From assembly GCA_000995965.1 (NCBI GenBank), contig LBYD01000004.1, positions 23,711 through 87,710 on the forward strand: DNA of 64,000 nt, written 5' to 3'. The stretch's first letter is position 1. Each line of letters begins with the position of its first letter. This document shows positions 27,679-34,574 of the stretch, one piece after another. Origin of the DNA: Candidatus Moranbacteria bacterium GW2011_GWC2_40_12. Its GTDB lineage: Bacteria; Patescibacteriota; Minisyncoccia; Moranbacterales; UBA11712. The position numbers and the translations under genes are program-made. Below the pieces are notes generated by a model, which was not told the DNA's origin, searched no databases, and was given only the letters and a program-made list of their open reading frames with translations.

Positions 27679-29205
27679 ATGAAACCAATCCAAATTCTTG
27701 TCGTTGATATGGGGTCGCAATACACGCTGGTCATCGGACGGACGCTTCGCGAGCTTGGGTTCCGAAGCGCTGTTTTGTCGCCCGGAAAAGCCGAGGGGTG
27801 GCTGAAAGCAAACAAGCCCCAAGCCGTCATTCTTTCCGGCGGAAGCGCGAGTGTTTACGAAGAAAATTCTCCTCAGCCGCCAAAATATATTTTGAAAATC
27901 GATATTCCAATTTTAGGGATATGCTACGGAATGCAATGGATTTCGCACAAAACCGGCGGGCTGGTCGCTCCCCATCACGAGAGAAAAGAATACGGGGAAG
28001 CAGTGGCGAAGTTCGACACAAAAGATTTGCTTTTCCGCGGTATAAAATCCAAAAGTATAGTCTGGGCAAGTCATGGGGACAGTGTGGAAAAGGTTCCGGT
28101 GGGATTCAGAATAATTGCGCGATCGGTTGATGAAAAAGTTATAGAAGCGATGTCGAGTCCGTCCAAAAAAATATGGGGTGTTCAATTTCATCCGGAAGTG
28201 ACGCACACCAAAGAAGGCAAAAAAATACTCCTCAATTTTTTGGAAAAAATTGCAAAATGCGAAAAAGATTGGCAACCGGCGGACATAGTTGACGATATCA
28301 GAAATGAGACATCAAAAGTTGCTGGAGACAAAAAAGCAATAATTGGATTTAGCGGAGGGGTGGATTCAACAACACTTTCGGCGGTTCTGGCTCCGGTATT
28401 TAGAAAAAATCTGCTGGCGGTTTGCATCGATACGGGAGGACTTCGGAGGAATGAGCTTGAAGAAATAAAATTCAACGCGCGGGCGGCCGGGGTGAATTTG
28501 AAAATTGTGAAAGCAAGCGCGCGTTTTCAGAAATCAATCGGACGCGAGACGCATTCGGAAAAAAAAAGAAAGCGCTTCAAAAAAATATACGGGCGCATTC
28601 TCGAAGAGGAAGCCAAAAAATTCCAAGCCGATTTTATTGTGCAGGGGAGCCTGGCGACTGATCTCATTGAATCGGGATCGGCGGGAAAAGCCGATCTCAT
28701 CAAATCGCATCACAATGTGGGGCTCAATCTCAAAGAGAAAGAACTGCATCCTTTCCGTAATTTGTTCAAATATGAAGTGCGCGAGCTGGCGCGGTCACTG
28801 AAACTGCCGAGCTCGATATCAGAGCGTCAGCCCTTTCCCGGTCCGGGGCTTTTCATCCGCATCATCGGCGAGCCGCCCCGAAAAGATAAGCTCAACATTG
28901 CGCGCTGGGCGGACGGCGAAGTGACGGATATTTTGAAAAAACATGGAGCTTATAAAGGTGTGTCGCAATTGATCGTAGCTCTCGATTGCCAAAGGACGGT
29001 TGGCATCAAAGGCGACGGGCGGGTCTATGCCTATTCGGTAATTGTCCGGGGCGTGAAAACTTTGGATTTCATGACGGCGGAAGGCGTTCAATTTCCGGCG
29101 AACATCCGGCGTGAAATTTCAACCGTCGTTACGCGCCATCCGAAAATTGTCCGCGTCTTTTTCGACGAAACCAATAAACCGCCGGCCACAACGGAAATGG
29201 AATGA
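27679..29205 (+). CDS. guaA: GMP synthase (glutamine-hydrolysing)
   Basis: Glutamine amidotransferase GICYGMQ plus catalytic HGD; ATP-PPase P-loop SGGVDSTT; conserved C-terminal dimerisation domain. Confidence 0.9.
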   Translation: MKPIQILVVDMGSQYTLVIGRTLRELGFRSAVLSPGKAEGWLKANKPQAVILSGGSASVYEENSPQPPKYILKIDIPILGICYGMQWISHKTGGLVAPHHERKEYGEAVAKFDTKDLLFRGIKSKSIVWASHGDSVEKVPVGFRIIARSVDEKVIEAMSSPSKKIWGVQFHPEVTHTKEGKKILLNFLEKIAKCEKDWQPADIVDDIRNETSKVAGDKKAIIGFSGGVDSTTLSAVLAPVFRKNLLAVCIDTGGLRRNELEEIKFNARAAGVNLKIVKASARFQKSIGRETHSEKKRKRFKKIYGRILEEEAKKFQADFIVQGSLATDLIESGSAGKADLIKSHHNVGLNLKEKELHPFRNLFKYEVRELARSLKLPSSISERQPFPGPGLFIRIIGEPPRKDKLNIARWADGEVTDILKKHGAYKGVSQLIVALDCQRTVGIKGDGRVYAYSVIVRGVKTLDFMTAEGVQFPANIRREISTVVTRHPKIVRVFFDETNKPPATTEME

Positions 29206-29302
29206 TTGAGCTAAGCCCGACATTGTTCACAGAAATCCTAGTCTTGAGGAATAAAAAAAATCGCGCCGGAACGCGATTGCGGAATATCGATTTATGATAA
29301 AT

Positions 29303-29632
29303 TCATGAAGCAAGAATCTTTTCAACCGCTTTTTCAAGGTCAGAAAGGTCATCCTTGCAAGTGCTCCAGACCGTTTCCGGATTCACGCCGAAATATTCGT
29401 GAATGATAAAGTTCCTCATGTCGATCATATTTCTCCAAGGGATGTCCGGATATTTTGAACGGAGTTTCGGCTCAAGATTGTTCGCCGCTTCTCCGATAAT
29501 CGCGAGTTGGCGCACCACGGCATCGACAGTTTTTTCATCCCGGGAGAAAGAATCATAGTCAAAGCCATTCAAATATTTTTCGATGGTTTTGACGGAGTCC
29601 CGGATATGTTTGAGATAAACCCTATCCTTCAT
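29303..29632 (-). CDS. hepT: HepT-like (DUF86) toxin of a HepT/MntA toxin-antitoxin pair
   Basis: DUF86 pattern with C-terminal RNFIIHEY (Rx4HxY). Confidence 0.75.
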   Translation of the reverse strand: MKDRVYLKHIRDSVKTIEKYLNGFDYDSFSRDEKTVDAVVRQLAIIGEAANNLEPKLRSKYPDIPWRNMIDMRNFIIHEYFGVNPETVWSTCKDDLSDLEKAVEKILAS

Positions 29633-29927
29633 ACACGGTTTCAGCGTTATGCATTACTTCGTCGCGAAAATACTTGCTCAAAGATCCCGGAGTTACAAGG
29701 TCCACTTCTCTCCCAAGATGTTCTTTGAAATGGCGATAAATCCCGGCCAGTTTGAAGAAGCCCACGCTTGCTTTCGGCTTGAACTCAATCAGAATGTCGA
29801 TATCGCTGTCGATCTTGGCAGTTCCATGCAGATATGATCCAAAAAGAGCAACTTTTTTGATCTCATCCTTGAGGCTGTCATGCTCGACGGTTTCCCGAAT
29901 AATTTTCTTGACTTCTTCCTTGTTCAT
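29622..29927 (-). CDS. mntA: MntA-type minimal nucleotidyltransferase (antitoxin)
   Basis: GSxLHGTAKIDSDIDILIEF (GSx10DxD nucleotidyltransferase motif); overlaps hepT by 11 nt. Confidence 0.75.
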   Translation of the reverse strand: MNKEEVKKIIRETVEHDSLKDEIKKVALFGSYLHGTAKIDSDIDILIEFKPKASVGFFKLAGIYRHFKEHLGREVDLVTPGSLSKYFRDEVMHNAETVYEG

Positions 29928-30222
29928 GCTTTCAGCTTACCATAAAATGTGTCTCTGTCAAAAGATAACACGATATTTTTTCAACAAAATTGTTGATATA
30001 CTGTAAATAAAGCTTTATACAAAGCAAAATAATCACTTTTGATTTGACAGAGGCCTGTTTTGGGTATATGCTATAACATTGGATATAGTACCTTGAAATT
30101 GTGCATTTTACGGCAAATCATTGCGGTTTTTGGCGAGTTTTGCGAAAAGTTTTCCGAAAACCGCAATGACGCGGTATATCAAAAAACGCGCCGTCATTTG
30201 ACGACCGCCAAGGAGGACTTGC

Positions 30223-30888
30223 ATGAGCGCAACCCTTAAGCAAGGAAAGAAATTATTATCTGTTTTTGAGAACACGTCTGCGGAACGGATGCAGGCGATT
30301 ATTGAGTCAGGTTTTCTTGCGGATCTTCGCGATGGCAACATTGCGAGAGTAGACCGCGACGAATTCAGGCAGATTCTGGGGCTTATGGCTCTAACTCCCA
30401 AGCCAGATTCTCTGCTCAAATTCATCCGGATTATTGCCATCCCCTCAACCAAGAAATTCATCGCCCGCGATCACTTCGTGGCTAACATCAAGGAAGGTGC
30501 CCGGGCGAAAATCTCCTATCTGGGAGATAATTTCCGCCAGGAATTCTTGGACAAGATCGAAAAACCGGCCGGGAAAAACAGCCTTCGCTGCCACGAGCTT
30601 CTGAAACCATCGGTAGACGGCTCGATATTCGCTGAACTCGGCGGTGAAAAAAAAGTCGCGTCCACGCTTGCCCAGATTTATTGGCTGATGGAACAGCAGC
30701 CAAACGGCGAAGACGGCACCATGCTGAATGACGGACGTTGGAATATTTTTTATATTCCTAACACCGCTGGTGTGCTTCGCGCGGTCTGCGTGTTCTGGAG
30801 CGGTGGCGGTTGGGGCGTGGATGCGGGCTCTGTTGAGTTTCCGTTCAGGTGGGACGTGGGCAGCCAGGTCTTCTCCCGCAATTCCTGA
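30223..30888 (+). CDS. DGR variable (target) protein with a C-terminal C-type-lectin-fold VR
   Basis: 221 aa; the last ~40 codons (30765-30888) match the TR at 31231-31358 except at TR adenines; ends ...FPFRWDVGSQVFSRNS*; no signal peptide detected. Confidence 0.75.
   Translation: MSATLKQGKKLLSVFENTSAERMQAIIESGFLADLRDGNIARVDRDEFRQILGLMALTPKPDSLLKFIRIIAIPSTKKFIARDHFVANIKEGARAKISYLGDNFRQEFLDKIEKPAGKNSLRCHELLKPSVDGSIFAELGGEKKVASTLAQIYWLMEQQPNGEDGTMLNDGRWNIFYIPNTAGVLRAVCVFWSGGGWGVDAGSVEFPFRWDVGSQVFSRNS
30765..30888 (+). repeat. DGR variable repeat (VR)
   Basis: About 124 nt aligned to the TR: 12 substitutions, all at TR-A positions (A->G, A->T); homology breaks in the last ~8 nt. Confidence 0.85.
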
Positions 30889-31230
30889 TCTTTTTTCCTT
30901 CGAATCTTTGAATTTTAACTCTTTGATTCTTTGGAACTTTGACCCTTCTCGATTTCTTCGGAAATTGTGGAGGGTTTTTTCTTTGCGATTTTTTTTGATA
31001 TAATTTTCTTGAGACTATGTGTTACGCAACGGCTACGGCTTTTGCGTCATGGCTTCAGGAATTTTTTCGCGAGAGTCGCGCCGGACACGTCTTGCGCGAG
31101 AGTGCGGAAAATATTCTTTTAAAAAAATGTGAATTGGTGCAGAAAACTGGAGGACTTCGATGTCCCGAATAAGATACAGCCCCGAGAGAATTCGAAGGGC
31201 GGTGGCGTGGATGGTTTTCTGCTCGAGAAC

Positions 31231-31358
31231 GAGCTGGTGTGCTTCGCGCGGTCTACGTGAACTGGAACGGTGGCGGTTGGAACGTGAATGCGAACTCTGT
31301 TGAGTTTCCGTTCAGGTGGAACGAGGGCAACCAGGTCTTCTCCCGCAACTCACTGATT
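31231..31358 (+). repeat. DGR template repeat (TR)
   Basis: Non-coding copy of the VR; in the VR frame it carries 7 AAC/AAT codons. Confidence 0.85.
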
Positions 31359-31757
31359 TCCTCTCCCGCTGTTTTGCGGGAGAGTTTTGCTCTGAAGCCC
31401 CTTTCGCCATCCTCCGAGCATTCGCCCGATTTCTTCAAGTCTTGTTGAAAGTTCAGTGAATTTATCGGTCGGAATCAGTTTGCTTTCCCAGGCAAGTTGC
31501 GCAAAAAATTTGAGAATATCAAGCTGTGATATTGTTTTTCCGAGCAGAATTATTTTTTGATCGGGCGGAAGATATGCGGCGGTGAAAGTCAACTCAAGAA
31601 CCGCCAGATATGATTGTTCAATTTTCTGTCCGATGCTGAATCGTTCGATTTTCGGAAAATTGCGATGCAATGCCAGCCAAAATTGATAAGCTTCTTTTTC
31701 TTTTTGAATAACGACCGGAAGCGTCGGGGGGGGGGGAATTTTTGAAAAGCCTGTCAT
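31350..31757 (-). CDS. avd: Avd (accessory variability determinant), four-helix-bundle protein
   Basis: FPKIERFSIG...VLELTF...LDILKFFAQLAWESKLI...EIGRMLGGWRKGL aligns block-for-block with bAvd / S23-ribosomal-type four-helix-bundle proteins; the 5' end is uncertain (Met at 31757 or GTG after the PPPP run). Confidence 0.7.
   Translation of the reverse strand: MTGFSKIPPPPTLPVVIQKEKEAYQFWLALHRNFPKIERFSIGQKIEQSYLAVLELTFTAAYLPPDQKIILLGKTISQLDILKFFAQLAWESKLIPTDKFTELSTRLEEIGRMLGGWRKGLQSKTLPQNSGRGNQ
31725..31736. repeat. G12/C12 homopolymeric tract at the divergent avd/RT junction
   Basis: 12 consecutive G on the + strand in a ~38% GC genome, 6 nt upstream of the RT TTG start, and encoding PPPP in the long form of avd. 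Confidence 0.9.
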
Positions 31758-32782
31758 TAAAAAAATTTGAGGATATAATTTCGGTTGAAAATCTTTTGCT
31801 AGCGTGGCAGGAATTTGAGCGCGGGAAGCGAAGTCGGAAAGACGTGCAGGAATTTTCTTTGCGAGTGATGGATAATATTTTCTCGCTCCACCGCGACCTT
31901 CTCAATCATACTTGGAAGCACGGCGGTTATCAAGCTTTCAAGATCAATGACCCTAAGCCGAGAGATATTCACAAAGCTTCGGTTTGCGACAGACTTTTAC
32001 ATCACGCCGTTTACCGGATTCTTTATCCTTTTTTTGAAAAAATATTTATCGCCGATTCGTATTCCTGCCAAATTAGAAAAGGCACGCACAGAGCGATTAA
32101 CAAATTTCGCAAGTTCGCATGGAAAGTCAGCCAGAACAACACGCGAACTTGCTGGGTTTTGAAGTGCGACATCAGAAAGTTTTTCGCGAATATAGATCAT
32201 GAAATCTTGCTTGGTATTTTGCGGGAGTATGTTCCGGACAAAAATATCATCCGGCTTCTTGAAAATGTGATAGGAAGTTTTTATTCAGATCGGTTTGGAG
32301 TTGGCCTGCCGCTTGGGAATCTCACTTCGCAGCTTTTTGTAAATATTTATCTGAATGAACTTGACCAGTTTGTGAAGCACAAACTGAAAGCCAGATATTA
32401 CATTCGCTATTGCGACGATTTTGTTATACTTTCTGAAAATAAATCTTGGCTTGAGCGGCAAATCCCGTTGGTAAGAAATTTTCTTTGGAAAAAATTACGG
32501 TTGAAGCTGCATCCCGATAAGGTTTTCATAAAAACGCTGTCTTCCGGCATGGATTTTCTGGGTATGGTGAATTTTCTTGATCACCGGATTTTGCGGACGA
32601 AAACAAAAAGAAAAATGTTAAGAAATATTTCGGAAAAACATTTTTTATTGAGAGAAGAATTTATTTCCGATAGTTTACTCAATCAAAGTTTGCATTCGTA
32701 TCTGGGGATATTGAAACATTGCAACGGACACAAAATTGAAGATGAGATCAGATCTCGCTTTTGCGCTGGAGGCTTGGATTAG
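31742..32782 (+). CDS. DGR reverse transcriptase
   Basis: RT domains 1-7 with YCDDF (YxDD), the DGR-specific LGNLTSQ motif and a group-II-intron-like fingers/palm; 346 aa; TTG start. Confidence 0.85.
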   Translation: MKSLSLKKFEDIISVENLLLAWQEFERGKRSRKDVQEFSLRVMDNIFSLHRDLLNHTWKHGGYQAFKINDPKPRDIHKASVCDRLLHHAVYRILYPFFEKIFIADSYSCQIRKGTHRAINKFRKFAWKVSQNNTRTCWVLKCDIRKFFANIDHEILLGILREYVPDKNIIRLLENVIGSFYSDRFGVGLPLGNLTSQLFVNIYLNELDQFVKHKLKARYYIRYCDDFVILSENKSWLERQIPLVRNFLWKKLRLKLHPDKVFIKTLSSGMDFLGMVNFLDHRILRTKTKRKMLRNISEKHFLLREEFISDSLLNQSLHSYLGILKHCNGHKIEDEIRSRFCAGGLD

Positions 32783-32802
32783 CTACAATACTAAAGCGGA
32801 TT

Positions 32803-34266
32803 ATGAATAAAGCTCTTCTCGAAAAATTGAAAAAATGGCAAAGCGAAAGGGCGCGGCGGGACAATGTCGAAGCCTATCGCGTTTTGCCATATTCGGTTTT
32901 GGGAGAAATCGCGCGGCGGCAGCCGCAAAGCGCCGAAGAGCTCTTGGAAGTGAAAGGCATCAAAGAAAAAAAATTGGCAAGGTATGGAAAAGAAATTTTG
33001 GCGCTGGTGGCAGGGGAACTAAACGATCAAGGTTCGACCTTTCCCTTCTTCGAGCAGAGCTCTCAGAATTCCTCAAGGTCGAACCTTATAGAAGACAAAA
33101 TATATGAAGTTGGCGAATATCTCGATTTTTTGAATATAAAACTACTGGAAGCCGAAGCGAAGATCAAAGGCGAGGTTTCGAGCGTGGAGAATCGGGGGAA
33201 TTATGTTTTCTTTGGCATCAAAGACAAATCAGGCGAAAGCCTTTTGAATTGTTTCATCTGGGGAAACGATTATTCAGTGAGCGGTGTGGAACTTGAAGAA
33301 GGCATGGAAGTGATCATTTGGGGCTATCCGAACGTATACAGGCCAAGCGGGCGGATGTCGTTTCAAACGAAGCTCATTGAAGTTGTCGGCGAAGGGGCGC
33401 TCAAAAAAGCCTATGATGATCTCAAAAGAAAGTTGGAGGCGGAAGGATTGTTCGCGCCTGAAAGAAAAAAAAAGATTCCCGATTTTTCTCATAAGATTGG
33501 ACTGATTACATCTCACCAGGGAGCGGCCATTGGAGATTTCACCTCGAATTTGGGAAGCTATGGCTTTCAAATAAAATTCTTTGATTCACGGGTGGAGGGA
33601 AAACAGGCAGTTTTTGATCTGACGAAAGCGTTAAAATGGTTTAATAAAAATATACCGAGTTTGGATGCGATAGTCTTAGTCCGTGGGGGAGGAAGCTTCG
33701 AAAGTTTGCAGGCTTTTAACACAGAGTCATTGGTTCGTGAAGTTGCAAATTCAAAAATTCCGATACTGGCCGGGATCGGACACGAGAAAGATATTTCCCT
33801 TGCGGCGCTCGCAGCGGATAAAATGGTCTCTACTCCAACCGGAGCAGCGGTAGAAATCACAAAATCTTGGGACGAAGCGGCGGGCAAAGTGGATGAAGCG
33901 GAGAGAAATTTACTAGGCTATCTTTCGGAAGTGTTTGAGCGGTTTAAACAGGCGAAGACAAAGATTCACAGAGAGGCGGAAAAAATCGGGCAGGCCATAC
34001 TTTATAGCCGTGAAAAAATAAGCAGTTTTTCGAAAAACGTGTCTTCCAGTTTCTCGCGCCAAGTAGAAGGCATCAAGGAGAAAATAAAAAATGCCGAAAA
34101 ACAAATCAACCTCAACAATCCCGAGCGGCAATTGAAACTGGGATACAGTCTTGTGAGTCTCGGCGGAAAAATTGTGCGGAGCGTGAAAAGAGTGAGAGTG
34201 GGGGACGAGGTGGATATAAAAGTTAGTGATGGGGAAATGAAGTCGGAAATTAAAGATATAATATAG
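32803..34266 (+). CDS. xseA: exodeoxyribonuclease VII large subunit with an N-terminal HRDC domain
   Basis: The N-terminal 80 aa (LLEKLKKWQSERARRDNVEAYRVLPYSVLGEIARRQPQSAEELLEVKGIKEKKLARYGKEILALV) match the RecQ/RNase D HRDC consensus, followed by the XseA OB-fold and catalytic core; 21 nt after the RT stop. Confidence 0.75.
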   Translation: MNKALLEKLKKWQSERARRDNVEAYRVLPYSVLGEIARRQPQSAEELLEVKGIKEKKLARYGKEILALVAGELNDQGSTFPFFEQSSQNSSRSNLIEDKIYEVGEYLDFLNIKLLEAEAKIKGEVSSVENRGNYVFFGIKDKSGESLLNCFIWGNDYSVSGVELEEGMEVIIWGYPNVYRPSGRMSFQTKLIEVVGEGALKKAYDDLKRKLEAEGLFAPERKKKIPDFSHKIGLITSHQGAAIGDFTSNLGSYGFQIKFFDSRVEGKQAVFDLTKALKWFNKNIPSLDAIVLVRGGGSFESLQAFNTESLVREVANSKIPILAGIGHEKDISLAALAADKMVSTPTGAAVEITKSWDEAAGKVDEAERNLLGYLSEVFERFKQAKTKIHREAEKIGQAILYSREKISSFSKNVSSSFSRQVEGIKEKIKNAEKQINLNNPERQLKLGYSLVSLGGKIVRSVKRVRVGDEVDIKVSDGEMKSEIKDII

Positions 34267-34367: not shown

Positions 34368-34574
34368 ATGCCAAAAGAAATTAATCTAACTCAATCTCTC
34401 AAAAAACTCGATGAAATTGTCGAGTGGTTTGAGAATCAGGGGGAAGTGGATGTGGAGAAGGGGATCGAAAAAGTGAAAGAAGGTGTCAAGCTCATCAAAG
34501 CCAGCCGCGAGCGACTCAAAAAAGTCGAAAATGAATTTGAGGAAGTGAAGAAAGAACTGGATGAGGAAATTTAA
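34368..34574 (+). CDS. xseB: exodeoxyribonuclease VII small subunit
   Basis: 68 aa; LDEIVEWFENQ...VDVEKGIEKVKEG...LIKASRERLKKVE is the typical XseB coiled coil. Confidence 0.75.
   Translation: MPKEINLTQSLKKLDEIVEWFENQGEVDVEKGIEKVKEGVKLIKASRERLKKVENEFEEVKKELDEEI

What the first reader, a model, noticed from the sequence alone, without database searches (positions are those of the whole stretch)
30223..32782. Complete diversity-generating retroelement with adenine-specific VR/TR mismatches
The last ~124 nt of CDS 30223-30888 (VR) are repeated ~340 nt downstream (TR, 31231-31358). I aligned them by eye: all 12 substitutions between them fall on TR adenines (tAc>tGc, AAc>TTc, AAc>aGc, AAc>GGc, AAt>GAt, AAc>GGc, AAc>GAc, gAg>gTg, AAc>aGc). 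Flanking blocks such as GTTGAGTTTCCGTTCAGGTGG are identical. In frame the TR carries seven AAC/AAT codons, the classic DGR design that lets Asn codons mutate to many residues. An Avd four-helix-bundle gene (31350-31757) and a reverse transcriptase with YCDD and the DGR-specific LGNLTSQ motif (31742-32782) complete the system. The target is small, has no signal peptide, and ends in a ...FPFRW... C-type-lectin-like C-terminus. DGRs are known to be abundant in CPR lineages, so the class is established; this instance and its accessory genes are still worth attention.
Basis: partly seen in the sequence, partly recalled or inferred. Interest (0 to 1): 0.85.

Follow-up and report, generated by a model that had tools for sequence, protein, structure and literature searches.

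The report
Retroelement diversifier with a slippery switch
This is a genuine diversity-generating retroelement in a groundwater Moranbacteria (CPR) genome, ordinary as a class, but its helper gene avd carries a slippage-prone run of 11 C's, conserved in related elements, that probably switches the system on and off.

Summary
VR (30766-30884) and TR (31233-31351) lie 467 nt apart. All 12 differences in the first 116 nt fall on TR adenines (P about 4e-11).

The RT is closest to the Bordetella phage DGR RT. Avd passes Pfam's bAvd threshold but is encoded on the minus strand, divergent from the RT. This is the published "B3" layout, TR-(avd)-RT, typical of CPR DGRs. As a class the element is known.

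Comparison with 80 related loci showed three features I found in no paper or Rfam family:
- **Structured RNA.** About 220 nt upstream of TR are conserved, and 39 of 45 predicted pairs show compensatory changes. A terminator hairpin follows TR.
- **CTTTG repeats.** Short repeats follow VR.
- **C tract in avd.** Codons 8-11 are a run of 11 C's (31726-31736). A G/C run of 9 or more sits here in 52 of 76 relatives, accounting for 53 of 54 such runs in 611 kb.

avd is out of frame in about 75% of repeat-bearing loci, which show no more decay than in-frame loci. Tract length varies between samples of one population, giving in-frame and out-of-frame alleles. Here, six sibling assemblies are out of frame; the window is in frame through a 36-nt deletion. 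VR is identical in all of them, so there is no sign of current turnover.

The parts
30044..30072 (+). Promoter-like site upstream of the target gene (TTGACA-17-TATGCT)
   Evidence: Consensus scan, 10 of 12 matches. The number of promoter-like sites in the region is no higher than in shuffles, so this is a lead only.
30223..30888 (+). Target gene: 221 aa, sequence-orphan family, helical N-terminal part and a C-terminal domain that is weakly C-type-lectin-like
30766..30884 (+). Variable repeat (VR): the last 40 sense codons of the target, the final one only in part
   Evidence: 119-nt repeat with TR. 12 of 13 mismatches fall at TR adenines.
30864..30884 (+). IMH-like 3' end of VR (CAGGTCTTCTCCCGCAAT-TC), identical to TR apart from one T/C difference
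   Evidence: Alignment. The encoded QVFSRNS is nearly invariant in the target family. Its function is inferred by analogy with Bordetella IMH/IMH*.
30902..30945 (+). Array of four CTTTG short repeats downstream of VR
   Evidence: Copies at 30906, 30921, 30929 and 30937. In 64 relatives there are 1.61 copies per 90 nt after VR against 0.13 in random windows; 34 of 64 have two or more copies, against 2 of 320 controls.
30941..30981 (+). Terminator-like hairpin and T run ending the target transcript
   Evidence: RNAfold -19.4 kcal/mol, followed by TTTTTT.
30996..31004 (+). Extended -10 element TGATATAAT, the likely promoter of the TR RNA
   Evidence: Located. The matching columns (TTTTTTTG-TATAAT/TATACT) are conserved in 15 relatives that have different targets.
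31010..31232 (+). Conserved structured RNA domain 5' of TR. Helices: 31025-31046, 31066-31108, 31137-31148 with 31213-31224, 31152-31165, 31179-31200
   Evidence: RNAalifold on 65 sequences gave 45 pairs, 39 with compensatory changes, covariation term -15.2 kcal/mol. The window forms nearly all of the pairs. No Rfam family matches at E up to 1.
31233..31351 (+). Template repeat (TR)
   Evidence: 21 adenines in the first 116 nt, 8 in-frame AAC/AAT codons.
31361..31388 (+). GC-rich hairpin (9 bp) and T run directly after TR. It lies inside the 3' end of avd on the other strand
   Evidence: Terminator scan. A hairpin of -9 kcal/mol or better followed by a T run occurs after TR in 54 of 64 relatives, against 8 of 192 random windows. 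The inner stem pairs covary.
31350..31757 (-). avd (135 aa in this allele), divergent from the RT; its first 16 nt overlap the RT start
   Evidence: Pfam bAvd 57.2 bits (cut-off 40), E 2.6e-15. NCBIfam DivGenRetAVD 69 bits, below its cut-off of 80. avd is on the minus strand in all 76 relatives where it is detectable.
31726..31736 (-). Homopolymer: 11 C on the avd strand (11 G on +), avd codons 8-11. Candidate hypermutable switch
   Evidence: It is the only G/C run of 8 or more in the 64-kb window. Sibling assemblies have G11 four times and G10 twice. Relatives have G9 22 times, G10 19, G11 10 and G14 once at the same site, which accounts for 53 of 54 such runs in 611 kb.
31736..31737 (.). Junction of a 36-nt deletion relative to six sibling assemblies, which carry TTCATGGAAATGAAAAATGAAAAATTAAAAGTGAAA here
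   Evidence: 100% identity to L001 over 5959 nt on one side and 7046 nt on the other. The deletion removes an in-frame stop and puts ATG 31757 in frame with the Avd domain.
31905..31933 (-). Promoter-like site on the minus strand inside the RT 5' coding region; could drive avd
   Evidence: TTGATA-17-TATGAT, 10 of 12 matches. Consensus match only.
31742..32782 (+). DGR reverse transcriptase (346 aa, TTG start)
   Evidence: RVT_1 77 bits. Best PDB relative is the Bordetella DGR RT 8ub7, E 8e-39. Far below the group II, retron and DRT cut-offs. 252 relatives found in Patescibacteria genomes.

Best explanation
The region is a chromosomal diversity-generating retroelement of the CPR-typical architecture target/VR - TR - (avd) - RT, in a Candidatus Moranbacteria genome from groundwater.

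**Inferred mechanism** (by homology with the Bordetella phage DGR):
1. A separate small transcription unit makes the DGR RNA: extended -10 near 30996, a 220-nt structured leader, the 119-nt TR, and a terminator hairpin at 31361-31388.
2. The RT, with pentameric Avd, copies TR into cDNA and misincorporates opposite adenines.
3. The cDNA replaces VR, recoding up to 9 codons in the last 40 sense codons of a 221-aa protein. That protein has no signal peptide and a weakly C-type-lectin-like variable face.

**Shown here:** the A-specific VR/TR pattern, the DGR-type RT, Avd, the conserved RNA structure and the terminator.

**Added layer (inferred, about 55% likely).** avd begins antisense inside the RT start and runs through a hypermutable C tract (11 C, 31726-31736). 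Gain or loss of a C by slipped-strand mispairing moves the Avd domain in and out of frame, so the element is switched on in only a fraction of cells. In this population the common alleles are off (C10 or C11 plus a 36-nt insert with a stop codon). The window carries an on allele. The VR consensus has not moved.
For: **DGR identity**
- 12 of 12 mismatches at TR adenines, P 4e-11.
- RT closest to bRT 8ub7, with the LGNLTSQ and YCDD motifs.
- Avd above the Pfam cut-off.
- In 64 related loci, 1096 of 1184 TR/VR mismatches are at TR adenines.
- The variable columns of the target family are the AAC/AAT positions.
- Layout matches published architecture B3 (PMC5758913).

**RNA unit**
- Covariation in 39 of 45 pairs.
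- Hairpin plus T run after TR in 54 of 64 relatives, against 8 of 192 controls.

**Switch**
- 53 of 54 G/C runs of 9 or more in 611 kb of relatives sit at this one site.
- The leader ORF stays open into the tract in 30 of 32 loci, against 15.7 expected, P 7e-8.
- avd is in frame in 15 of 61 repeat-bearing loci but in 10 of 13 without a repeat, Fisher P 6e-4.
- Out-of-frame loci are no more decayed: 93.2% against 92.1% of mismatches at A, and 1.24 against 1.47 non-A mismatches per locus.
- Tract length differs between samples that carry an identical RT protein. Window population: G11 and G10. P0128: G10 to G14. P0187: G9 nine times (in frame) and G10 four times. P0136: G12 once (in frame) and G10 three times. 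P0215: G9 once (in frame) and G10 six times.
- A subclade has (CT)n at the same place.
Against: - VR is identical in all 7 sibling assemblies and in every full-length member of the 90% protein cluster; one 311-aa member on a 1.2-kb contig diverges inside the VR region. Nothing shows this element is active now.
- The link between frame state and VR turnover is not clean. P0172 is G10 (out of frame) in all 8 assemblies yet has several VR alleles differing at TR-A sites.
- Two populations show no length variation: G9 eight times and G10 eight times.
- Assembly consensus cannot separate DNA-level switching from RNA or ribosome slippage. Homopolymer lengths of 13-14 are error-prone in short reads.
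- The 36-nt deletion allele appears only in the window, so I could not confirm it independently.
- The promoter assignments are consensus matches.
Confidence: 0.6

Rival explanations
1. The C tract is a decoding site, not a DNA switch. RNA polymerase stuttering or tRNA-Pro slippage on CCC-C (with ribosome stalling on PPP) yields some in-frame Avd from any tract length. Under this reading the tract sets a low, constitutive Avd level, and DNA length drifts freely.
For: - The frames of tract-bearing loci are near random: 15 in frame, 25 needing -1 nt, 21 needing +1 nt.
- Out-of-frame loci keep pristine A-only VR/TR patterns.
- P0172 is out of frame in 8 of 8 assemblies but has several VR alleles.
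- P0219 holds a stable out-of-frame G9 in 8 of 8 assemblies.
Against: - Both shift directions are equally common, unlike known programmed frameshift sites.
- From my own knowledge, bacterial transcriptional slippage is documented mainly for A/T runs.
- In-frame and out-of-frame DNA alleles do co-occur in three populations.
- A subclade uses a (CT)n dinucleotide repeat, which suits DNA slippage better than tRNA-Pro slippage.
- The locus with an interrupted tract and an out-of-frame leader (P0180) has a static VR with 3 of 20 non-A mismatches. Both models predict this result.
Confidence: 0.22
2. The G run and the adjacent TTAAAAG motif act on the plus strand, as part of the RT promoter, 5' UTR or ribosome-binding region. 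Avd is then translated from a start downstream of the tract, and frame relative to the upstream ATG does not matter.
For: - G(9-11)-nn-TTAAAAG is conserved 17-40 nt upstream of the RT ATG.
- In the window the run sits 5 nt before the RT TTG start, like a Shine-Dalgarno site. In sibling assemblies it precedes a 13-codon upstream ORF whose stop overlaps the RT start.
- Some loci have a TTG or GTG at the LP(A/V)V position right after the tract (P0180).
Against: - Most loci, including this window (ACG CTT CCG GTC GTT ATT), have no ATG, GTG or TTG between the tract and the first Avd helix.
- The leader ORF from the antisense ATG is kept open into the tract far more often than chance.
- Loci without a repeat are nearly always in frame with that ATG.
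- In most relatives the run is too far from the RT ATG to serve as a ribosome-binding site.
Confidence: 0.1
3. The element in this genome is a quiescent or decaying relic. It diversified VR in the past, and avd is now being lost through frameshifts and an insertion.
For: - VR is identical in all assemblies compared.
- avd is out of frame in 6 of 7 alleles, and a stop-bearing 36-nt segment is present in those six.
Against: - There are zero non-A differences over the 95 non-adenine positions of the 116-nt core.
- The RT ORF is intact and identical in 24 or more contigs.
- The TR-flanking RNA keeps nearly all consensus pairs.
- The same out-of-frame condition is the norm in the clade without signs of decay.
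- In a relative with the same insert arrangement, a G12 allele restores full-length avd.
Confidence: 0.08

Closest known systems
Bordetella bacteriophage BPP-1 DGR (mtd-avd-TR-brt)
   Same: - Adenine-specific TR-to-VR information transfer.
- An RT with the (I/L)GxxxSQ motif; 8ub7 is the best PDB match.
- An Avd accessory protein.
- VR at the C-terminal end of the target, with a conserved 3' IMH-like block.
   Different: - avd is on the opposite strand, between TR and the RT, and overlaps the RT start.
- The conserved structured RNA lies 5' of TR, and a terminator hairpin follows TR directly. In Bordetella a 140-nt spacer between TR and brt carries the priming site; the need for upstream and downstream RNA segments is stated in the abstract of bioRxiv 10.1101/2023.10.23.563531.
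- CTTTG repeats follow VR instead of a GC-rich cruciform.
- The element is chromosomal, and the target has no signal peptide.
- avd carries a homopolymer tract.
CPR/DPANN DGRs, architecture B3 'TR-(avd)-RT' (Wu et al. 2018, PMC5758913; Paul et al. 2017 as cited there)
   Same: The gene order and strands are the same. The paper states that B3 accounts for 90% of its CPR set. The source is also the same kind of groundwater CPR genome. The target is an orphan protein whose VR class cannot be assigned by sequence.
   Different: - The paper's text does not mention a homopolymer or repeat in avd ('homopolymer' occurs 0 times).
- It says only that a minority of DGRs have terminators after the target gene, and describes neither a conserved RNA upstream of TR nor a terminator after TR.
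- I could not read Paul et al. 2017 or the supplementary tables, so I cannot say whether this locus is listed there.
Simple-sequence contingency loci: poly-G/C phase variation in Neisseria, Campylobacter, Bordetella pertussis and Mycobacterium (e.g. PMC1891110, PMC8355987, PMC10334774)
   Same: - A G/C homopolymer of 9-14 nt near the 5' end of a coding region.
- In-frame and out-of-frame lengths co-occurring in one population.
- A dinucleotide repeat at the same position in a subclade.
   Different: The switched gene is not a surface antigen or restriction system but the accessory factor of a targeted hypermutation machine. Switching rates have not been measured, and the hosts are uncultured Patescibacteria.

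Membership tests
Diversity-generating retroelement (DGR) | TR/VR repeat pair whose differences fall almost only on TR adenines | tested here: met
   12 of 12 in the 116-nt core and 12 of 13 over 119 nt; P 4e-11.
Diversity-generating retroelement (DGR) | VR inside the 3' part of a protein-coding target gene, with TR adenines in codon positions 1-2 (AAC/AAT) | tested here: met
   VR covers the last 40 sense codons of CDS 30223-30888 (the final one only in part). TR has 8 in-frame AAC/AAT codons, 7 of them changed.
Diversity-generating retroelement (DGR) | Reverse transcriptase of the DGR clade ((I/L)GxxxSQ in motif 4, YxDD catalytic motif) | tested here: met
   LGNLTSQ and YCDD are present. The best PDB match is Bordetella bRT 8ub7, E 8e-39, against 1e-19 for group II RTs. 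The protein scores far below the NCBIfam group II, retron and Drt cut-offs. No formal RT phylogeny was built.
Diversity-generating retroelement (DGR) | Accessory variability determinant (Avd) next to TR and RT | tested here: met
   Pfam bAvd 57.2 bits against a cut-off of 40. NCBIfam DivGenRetAVD 69.2 bits, below its cut-off of 80. The gene is intact in the window's allele only.
Diversity-generating retroelement (DGR) | IMH at the VR 3' end, a non-identical IMH* at the TR 3' end, and a downstream structure marking the recipient | tested here: inconclusive
   An 18-nt identical GC-rich block is followed by one T/C difference, after which homology ends. No GC-rich cruciform is present. Conserved CTTTG repeats and a terminator hairpin follow VR instead.
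Diversity-generating retroelement (DGR) | Ongoing VR diversification in the population | tested here: not met
   VR is identical in the 7 sibling assemblies and in the full-length cluster members. This compares consensus sequences only, not reads. Related elements do show it: 6 different VRs in 6 assemblies of the P0187 population, all differing at TR-A sites.
Diversity-generating retroelement (DGR) | Variable residues displayed on a C-type-lectin (or Ig) fold | tested here: inconclusive
DGR architecture B3 (Wu et al. 2018) | Order TR - avd on the reverse strand - RT | tested here: met
   TR 31233-31351 (+), avd 31350-31757 (-), RT 31742-32782 (+). The layout is the same in all 76 relatives where avd is detectable. 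Definition taken from PMC5758913.
Phase-variable contingency locus (simple-sequence repeat) | Uninterrupted mono- or dinucleotide repeat inside the 5' coding region, far above background frequency | tested here: met
   C11 forms avd codons 8-11. It is the only G/C run of 8 or more in 64 kb. 53 of 54 runs of 9 or more in 611 kb of relatives are at this site. The leader ORF stays open into the tract in 30 of 32 loci, against 15.7 expected.
Phase-variable contingency locus (simple-sequence repeat) | Repeat-length polymorphism within one population, giving in-frame and out-of-frame alleles | tested here: met
   Shown directly in related populations. P0187: G9 in frame nine times, G10 out of frame four times. 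P0136: G12 in frame, G10 out. P0215: G9 in frame, G10 out. In the window population G11 and G10 are both out of frame, and the in-frame allele comes from the 36-nt indel. All of this is from assembly consensus, not read counts.
Phase-variable contingency locus (simple-sequence repeat) | Measured reversible high-frequency switching with a phenotypic consequence | not testable with these tools
   This needs reads, cultures or a reconstituted system. The link between frame state and VR turnover across 9 populations is suggestive but not clean.

The most novel reading that the evidence does not exclude
Patescibacteria DGRs of the TR-(avd)-RT type carry a built-in stochastic on/off switch. A hypermutable C tract, or (CT)n in one subclade, lies in a leader that starts antisense within the RT start codon region and decides whether Avd is made. 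Targeted hypermutation of the target protein therefore runs only in a minority of cells, or in bursts. This window's population would hold both states: C10 or C11 with the insert is off, and the 36-nt deletion allele is on. These elements also use a previously undescribed structured RNA, with its conserved domain 5' of TR and a terminator directly after TR. That implies a cDNA priming arrangement different from the Bordetella spacer model.
Probability: 0.5. Interest if true: 0.8.

Novelty: new variant of a known kind. Interest (0 to 1): 0.6.

Why it matters
How DGRs limit the cost of constant mutagenesis is an open question. Regulation is known for very few elements, and none of those is in CPR bacteria, where DGRs are most abundant.

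A conserved slippery tract in avd would place a second mutational mechanism, phase variation, in control of the first, retro-mutagenesis. It would also explain why many CPR DGRs appear to have a broken or unannotated avd (gene callers returned 89- to 151-aa fragments or nothing). That bears on any survey that scores DGRs as complete or active from annotation.

The idea can be tested directly with existing read sets from the Rifle aquifer.

The conserved leader-TR-terminator RNA gives exact boundaries for reconstituting a CPR DGR in vitro, and could be added to RNA family libraries.

If the tract proves to be sequencing noise or a plain 5' UTR element, the locus is simply one more member of a well-catalogued class.

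Tried and rejected
- **HRDC-XseA as a DGR accessory gene (32805-34266).** Rejected. HRDC is a known DGR accessory domain, but among the 80 species-level relatives only L009 has it next to the RT (the closely related P0128 population, L097-L103, has it too), and XseB follows it. It is a housekeeping neighbour.
- **Second VR in the window.** None on either strand.
- **Rfam.** No family at E up to 1 in 29000-34000.
- **Avd against PDB by sequence.** No meaningful hit.
- **Target fold.** Foldseek against PDB gave nothing below E 0.7. The afdb50 library was unavailable. A profile of 61 homologs against PDB and Pfam gave nothing.
- **Independent copies of the 36-nt deletion allele.** The exact 135-aa Avd is not on record. 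A junction pattern found nothing in the JGI metagenomes, which seem not to hold this population.
- **An avd start codon just after the tract.** Present in some loci (TTG or GTG) but absent in most, including the window.
- **An N-terminal extension of the RT through the G run.** By my reading, the RT frame is open across the run in 30 of 55 loci, no more than expected when 2 of 3 frames lack stops.
- **A universal in-frame tract length.** None. The in-frame length is 8/11, 9/12 or 10/13 depending on the flanks.
- **Frame state against VR turnover across 9 populations.** Inconclusive. P0187 (mostly in frame) has a different VR in every assembly, but P0172 (out of frame) also varies.
- **Literature.** Four full-text searches found no paper linking DGR avd to homopolymers, phase variation or slippage. 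Paul et al. 2017 and the supplement of Wu et al. 2018 could not be read.


Full report
**1. The observation**

A 119-nt direct repeat links 30766-30884 (VR, the end of CDS 30223-30888) to 31233-31351 (TR), offset 467 nt, 89% identical.

In the 116-nt core there are 12 mismatches, all at TR adenines (9 A>G, 3 A>T). TR has 21 A in 116 nt, so the chance of this pattern is 4.3e-11. One further C>T mismatch lies three bases before homology ends.

TR has 8 in-frame AAC/AAT codons, of which 7 are altered at A positions in VR. The window holds no second VR.

**2. The parts**

- **RT (31742-32782, +).** It matches RVT_1 and carries LGNLTSQ and YCDD. Its best solved relative is the Bordetella phage DGR RT 8ub7 (E 8e-39); group II intron RTs follow at 1e-19. 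It scores far below the NCBIfam cut-offs for group II, retron and Drt enzymes, and matches only a generic RT model in PADLOC.
- **Avd (31350-31757, -).** It passes Pfam's bAvd threshold with 57 bits against 40. It falls short of NCBIfam's stricter equivalog cut-off, 69 bits against 80.
- **Target (221 aa).** It has no Pfam or NCBIfam match and no hydrophobic run longer than 7 residues. It belongs to a family of at least 139 Patescibacteria proteins. In an alignment of 61 members the scaffold VLRAV..W...GW.V.A.SV..P..W..G..VFSRNS is conserved, and the columns in between, which are the AAC/AAT positions, vary freely.

**3. Source and relatives**

The same RT protein is encoded on 24 or more contigs from groundwater samples, including GCA_001784895.1 and GCA_003489455.1. 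The target protein is annotated in Candidatus Moranbacteria genomes.

A scan of species-representative genomes found 252 relatives of the RT, and I kept 80 loci. In all 76 loci where avd can be detected, it lies on the strand opposite to the RT, immediately upstream and divergent. This is architecture B3, TR-(avd)-RT, which Wu et al. 2018 report for 90% of their CPR DGR set (PMC5758913).

In 64 of these loci a TR/VR pair sits in the same position, and 1096 of 1184 mismatches are at TR adenines. The class and layout are therefore known, and this locus is a regular member.

The HRDC-XseA fusion next to the RT is not part of the element. Among the 80 species-level relatives only L009 has it there, and the closely related P0128 population has it too.

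**4. The TR transcription unit**

- The 341-nt (median) spacer between VR and TR is conserved across loci with unrelated targets.
- It begins, after a terminator-like hairpin for the target gene (30941-30981), with an extended -10 element (TGATATAAT at 30996).
- About 220 nt then follow that fold into five helices with strong covariation. Of 45 predicted pairs, 39 show compensatory changes among 65 sequences, and the window forms nearly all of them.
- Directly after TR comes a 9-bp GC-rich hairpin and T run (31361-31388). A comparable hairpin occurs in 54 of 64 relatives, against 8 of 192 random windows, with covarying inner pairs.
- No Rfam family matches.

I infer that the DGR RNA is a discrete transcript of roughly 380 nt whose conserved structured domain lies 5' of TR. 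In the Bordetella element, by contrast, template function also depends on a spacer downstream of TR (abstract of bioRxiv 10.1101/2023.10.23.563531).

Downstream of VR there is also an array of CTTTG-type short repeats. It is 12-fold enriched over background, and 34 of 64 loci have two or more copies, against 2 of 320 controls. Its position suggests a role in marking the recipient site, but that is speculation.

**5. The C tract in avd**

avd codons 8-11 are a run of 11 C (G on the plus strand, 31726-31736). It is the only G/C run of 8 or more in the 64-kb window.

*Sibling assemblies.* Six sibling assemblies of the same strain are 100% identical to the window over about 13 kb, apart from this spot. 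They have G11 four times and G10 twice, plus a 36-nt segment right after the run that the window lacks. In those six, the upstream ATG frame hits a stop inside the 36-nt segment. A second ATG just before the run is out of frame for both C10 and C11, and would need C9 or C12. The window's deletion removes the stop and puts ATG 31757 in frame. Gene callers accordingly returned 106-aa or 151-aa fragments, or no avd at all, for the siblings.

*Related loci.*
- 52 of 76 carry a G/C run of 9 or more at the same place (G9 in 22, G10 in 19, G11 in 10, G14 in 1). This site accounts for 53 of the 54 such runs in 611 kb.
- Another subclade has a (CT)n repeat there.
- In most relatives avd starts at an ATG that is the reverse complement of the His codon at about position 7 of the RT. 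The two genes thus overlap head to head within a near-palindrome, RT MKIQLxH against Avd MxQLNFH.
- The short leader from that ATG stays open into the tract in 30 of 32 loci, against 15.7 expected from shuffles, P 7e-8. The tract is therefore very probably translated.

*Frame states.*
- The Avd domain is in frame with that ATG in only 15 of 61 repeat-bearing loci: 25 would need one base fewer and 21 one base more.
- It is in frame in 10 of 13 loci without a repeat, Fisher P 6e-4.
- Out-of-frame loci are not decayed. The share of mismatches at A is 93.2% against 92.1%, and non-A mismatches per locus are 1.24 against 1.47.

**6. Variation within populations**

I compared assemblies from different samples that encode an identical RT protein.

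| Population | Tract lengths seen | Frame | VR alleles |
|---|---|---|---|
| Window | G11 x5 (incl. window), G10 x2 | off x6, on x1 (via deletion) | 1 in 8 |
| P0128 | G10, G11 x3, G13 x3 (two at contig ends), G14 | all off (on needs 9, 12 or 15) | 4 identical; a fifth differs by one base near the repeat's 3' end |
| P0219 | G9 x8 | off | 2, differing at one TR-A site |
| P0172 | G10 x8 (a sister genome, L013, has G9 in frame) | off | several, differing at TR-A sites |
| P0187, with JGI contigs | G9 x9, G10 x4 | on x9 (140-aa Avd), off x4 | 6 different in 6 assemblies, all at TR-A sites |
| P0136 (same insert type as the window's siblings) | G12 x1, G10 x3 | on x1 (MNPPPPTLLPLLQKAK...), off x3 | 1 in 2 |
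| P0215 | G9 x1, G10 x6 | on x1 (132-aa Avd), off x6 | 2 |
| P0185 | G7 x5 | off | 1 in 3 |
| P0180 | interrupted G6AG3 x10 | off | 1 in 8; 3 of 20 mismatches non-A |

Length polymorphism that flips the frame is thus seen directly in three populations, and length polymorphism of some kind in five of nine. The link between frame state and VR turnover is suggestive but not clean.

**7. Interpretation**

The locus is a bona fide DGR (confidence about 0.95).

The most likely reading of the tract is a simple-sequence contingency switch on avd, and hence on mutagenic retrohoming. I put this at about 55%. The main rival is that the tract is decoded by RNA polymerase or ribosome slippage, so that DNA frame matters little. 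Consensus assemblies cannot separate the two. A plus-strand role for the G run in RT expression cannot be excluded and might coexist.

For this window, past activity is shown: 12 A-site changes and no other change across the 95 non-adenine positions of the 116-nt core. Present activity is not shown: VR is identical in every assembly I could compare.

**8. Novelty**

The class, the architecture and probably the locus itself are already catalogued. In four full-text searches I found no description of the tract, the leader that overlaps the RT start, the 5' structured RNA with its terminator, or the CTTTG array, nor in Wu et al. 2018 or Rfam. The key CPR survey (Paul et al. 2017) could not be read, so the novelty claim is provisional.

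Noticed in passing
window 31726-31736 (minus strand, avd codons 8-11): Run of 11 C/G, the only G/C homopolymer of 8 or more in the window. It is conserved at the same site in 52 of 76 related DGRs, with lengths that put avd out of frame in about 75% of them. Length differs between samples of single populations.
   Followed up: yes
window 31736/31737, compared with L001:5960-5995: The window lacks 36 nt (TTCATGGAAATGAAAAATGAAAAATTAAAAGTGAAA) that six otherwise identical assemblies carry right after the G run. The deletion removes a stop in the avd leader and a 13-codon upstream ORF before the RT, and places the G run 5 nt before the RT TTG start. I could not find the deletion allele elsewhere, so it may be a real minority allele or an assembly difference.
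   Followed up: partly
window 31010-31232: A structured RNA of about 220 nt between an extended -10 element and TR, with five helices. 39 of 45 pairs show compensatory changes across 65 loci. No Rfam match.
   Followed up: yes
window 31361-31388: GC-rich hairpin and T run immediately after TR, on the plus strand and inside the 3' end of avd. It is conserved, with covarying stems, in most relatives. This implies that the TR RNA and the RT mRNA are separate transcripts.
   Followed up: yes
window 30902-30945: Four CTTTG repeats spaced 8-15 nt apart just downstream of VR. Similar arrays (CTTTG, CTTAG, CTCAG) follow VR in most relatives, whatever the target gene.
   Followed up: partly
L017:3975-4000 and most of L012-L084 (RT start region): In most relatives the RT and avd start codons face each other inside a 21-nt near-palindrome, ATGAAAATTCAATTGnnnCAT. 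The RT begins MKIQLxH and Avd begins MxQLNFH. The 5' ends of the two mRNAs would be complementary. The window's lineage has lost the palindrome but keeps the 16-nt overlap.
   Followed up: partly
L051, L060, L078, L080, L083, L087, L088 (avd 5' region): A subclade carries a (CT)7-16 dinucleotide repeat, read as SLSLSL, in place of or beside the C run at the same position in the avd leader.
   Followed up: partly
window 30118-30169: 16-nt inverted repeat (TCATTGCGGTTTTTGG / CCGAAAACCGCAATGA, 94% complementary, 20 nt apart) between the promoter-like site and the start of the target gene. It could be an operator or a 5' UTR hairpin.
   Followed up: no
window 32805-34266 and 34368-34574: The exonuclease VII large subunit carries an N-terminal HRDC domain (an unusual fusion) and is followed by a 68-aa ORF that looks like XseB. 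It is adjacent to the RT only here, in L009 and in the closely related P0128 population, so it is not a DGR accessory.
   Followed up: partly
window 29303-29927 (minus strand): A MNT/HepT (nucleotidyltransferase / HEPN RNase) toxin-antitoxin pair lies directly upstream of the DGR target gene. It is syntenic in the sister species.
   Followed up: no
L026:1339-2485: In one relative about 1.1 kb is inserted between the G14 tract and the RT start, separating avd from the RT. The content of the insert was not examined.
   Followed up: no
L101, L103 (contig ends), L003:5685-5690: Several public contigs start or break exactly at the G tract or inside TR, and one scaffold has N gaps at both places. 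Both sites therefore trouble assemblers.
   Followed up: no
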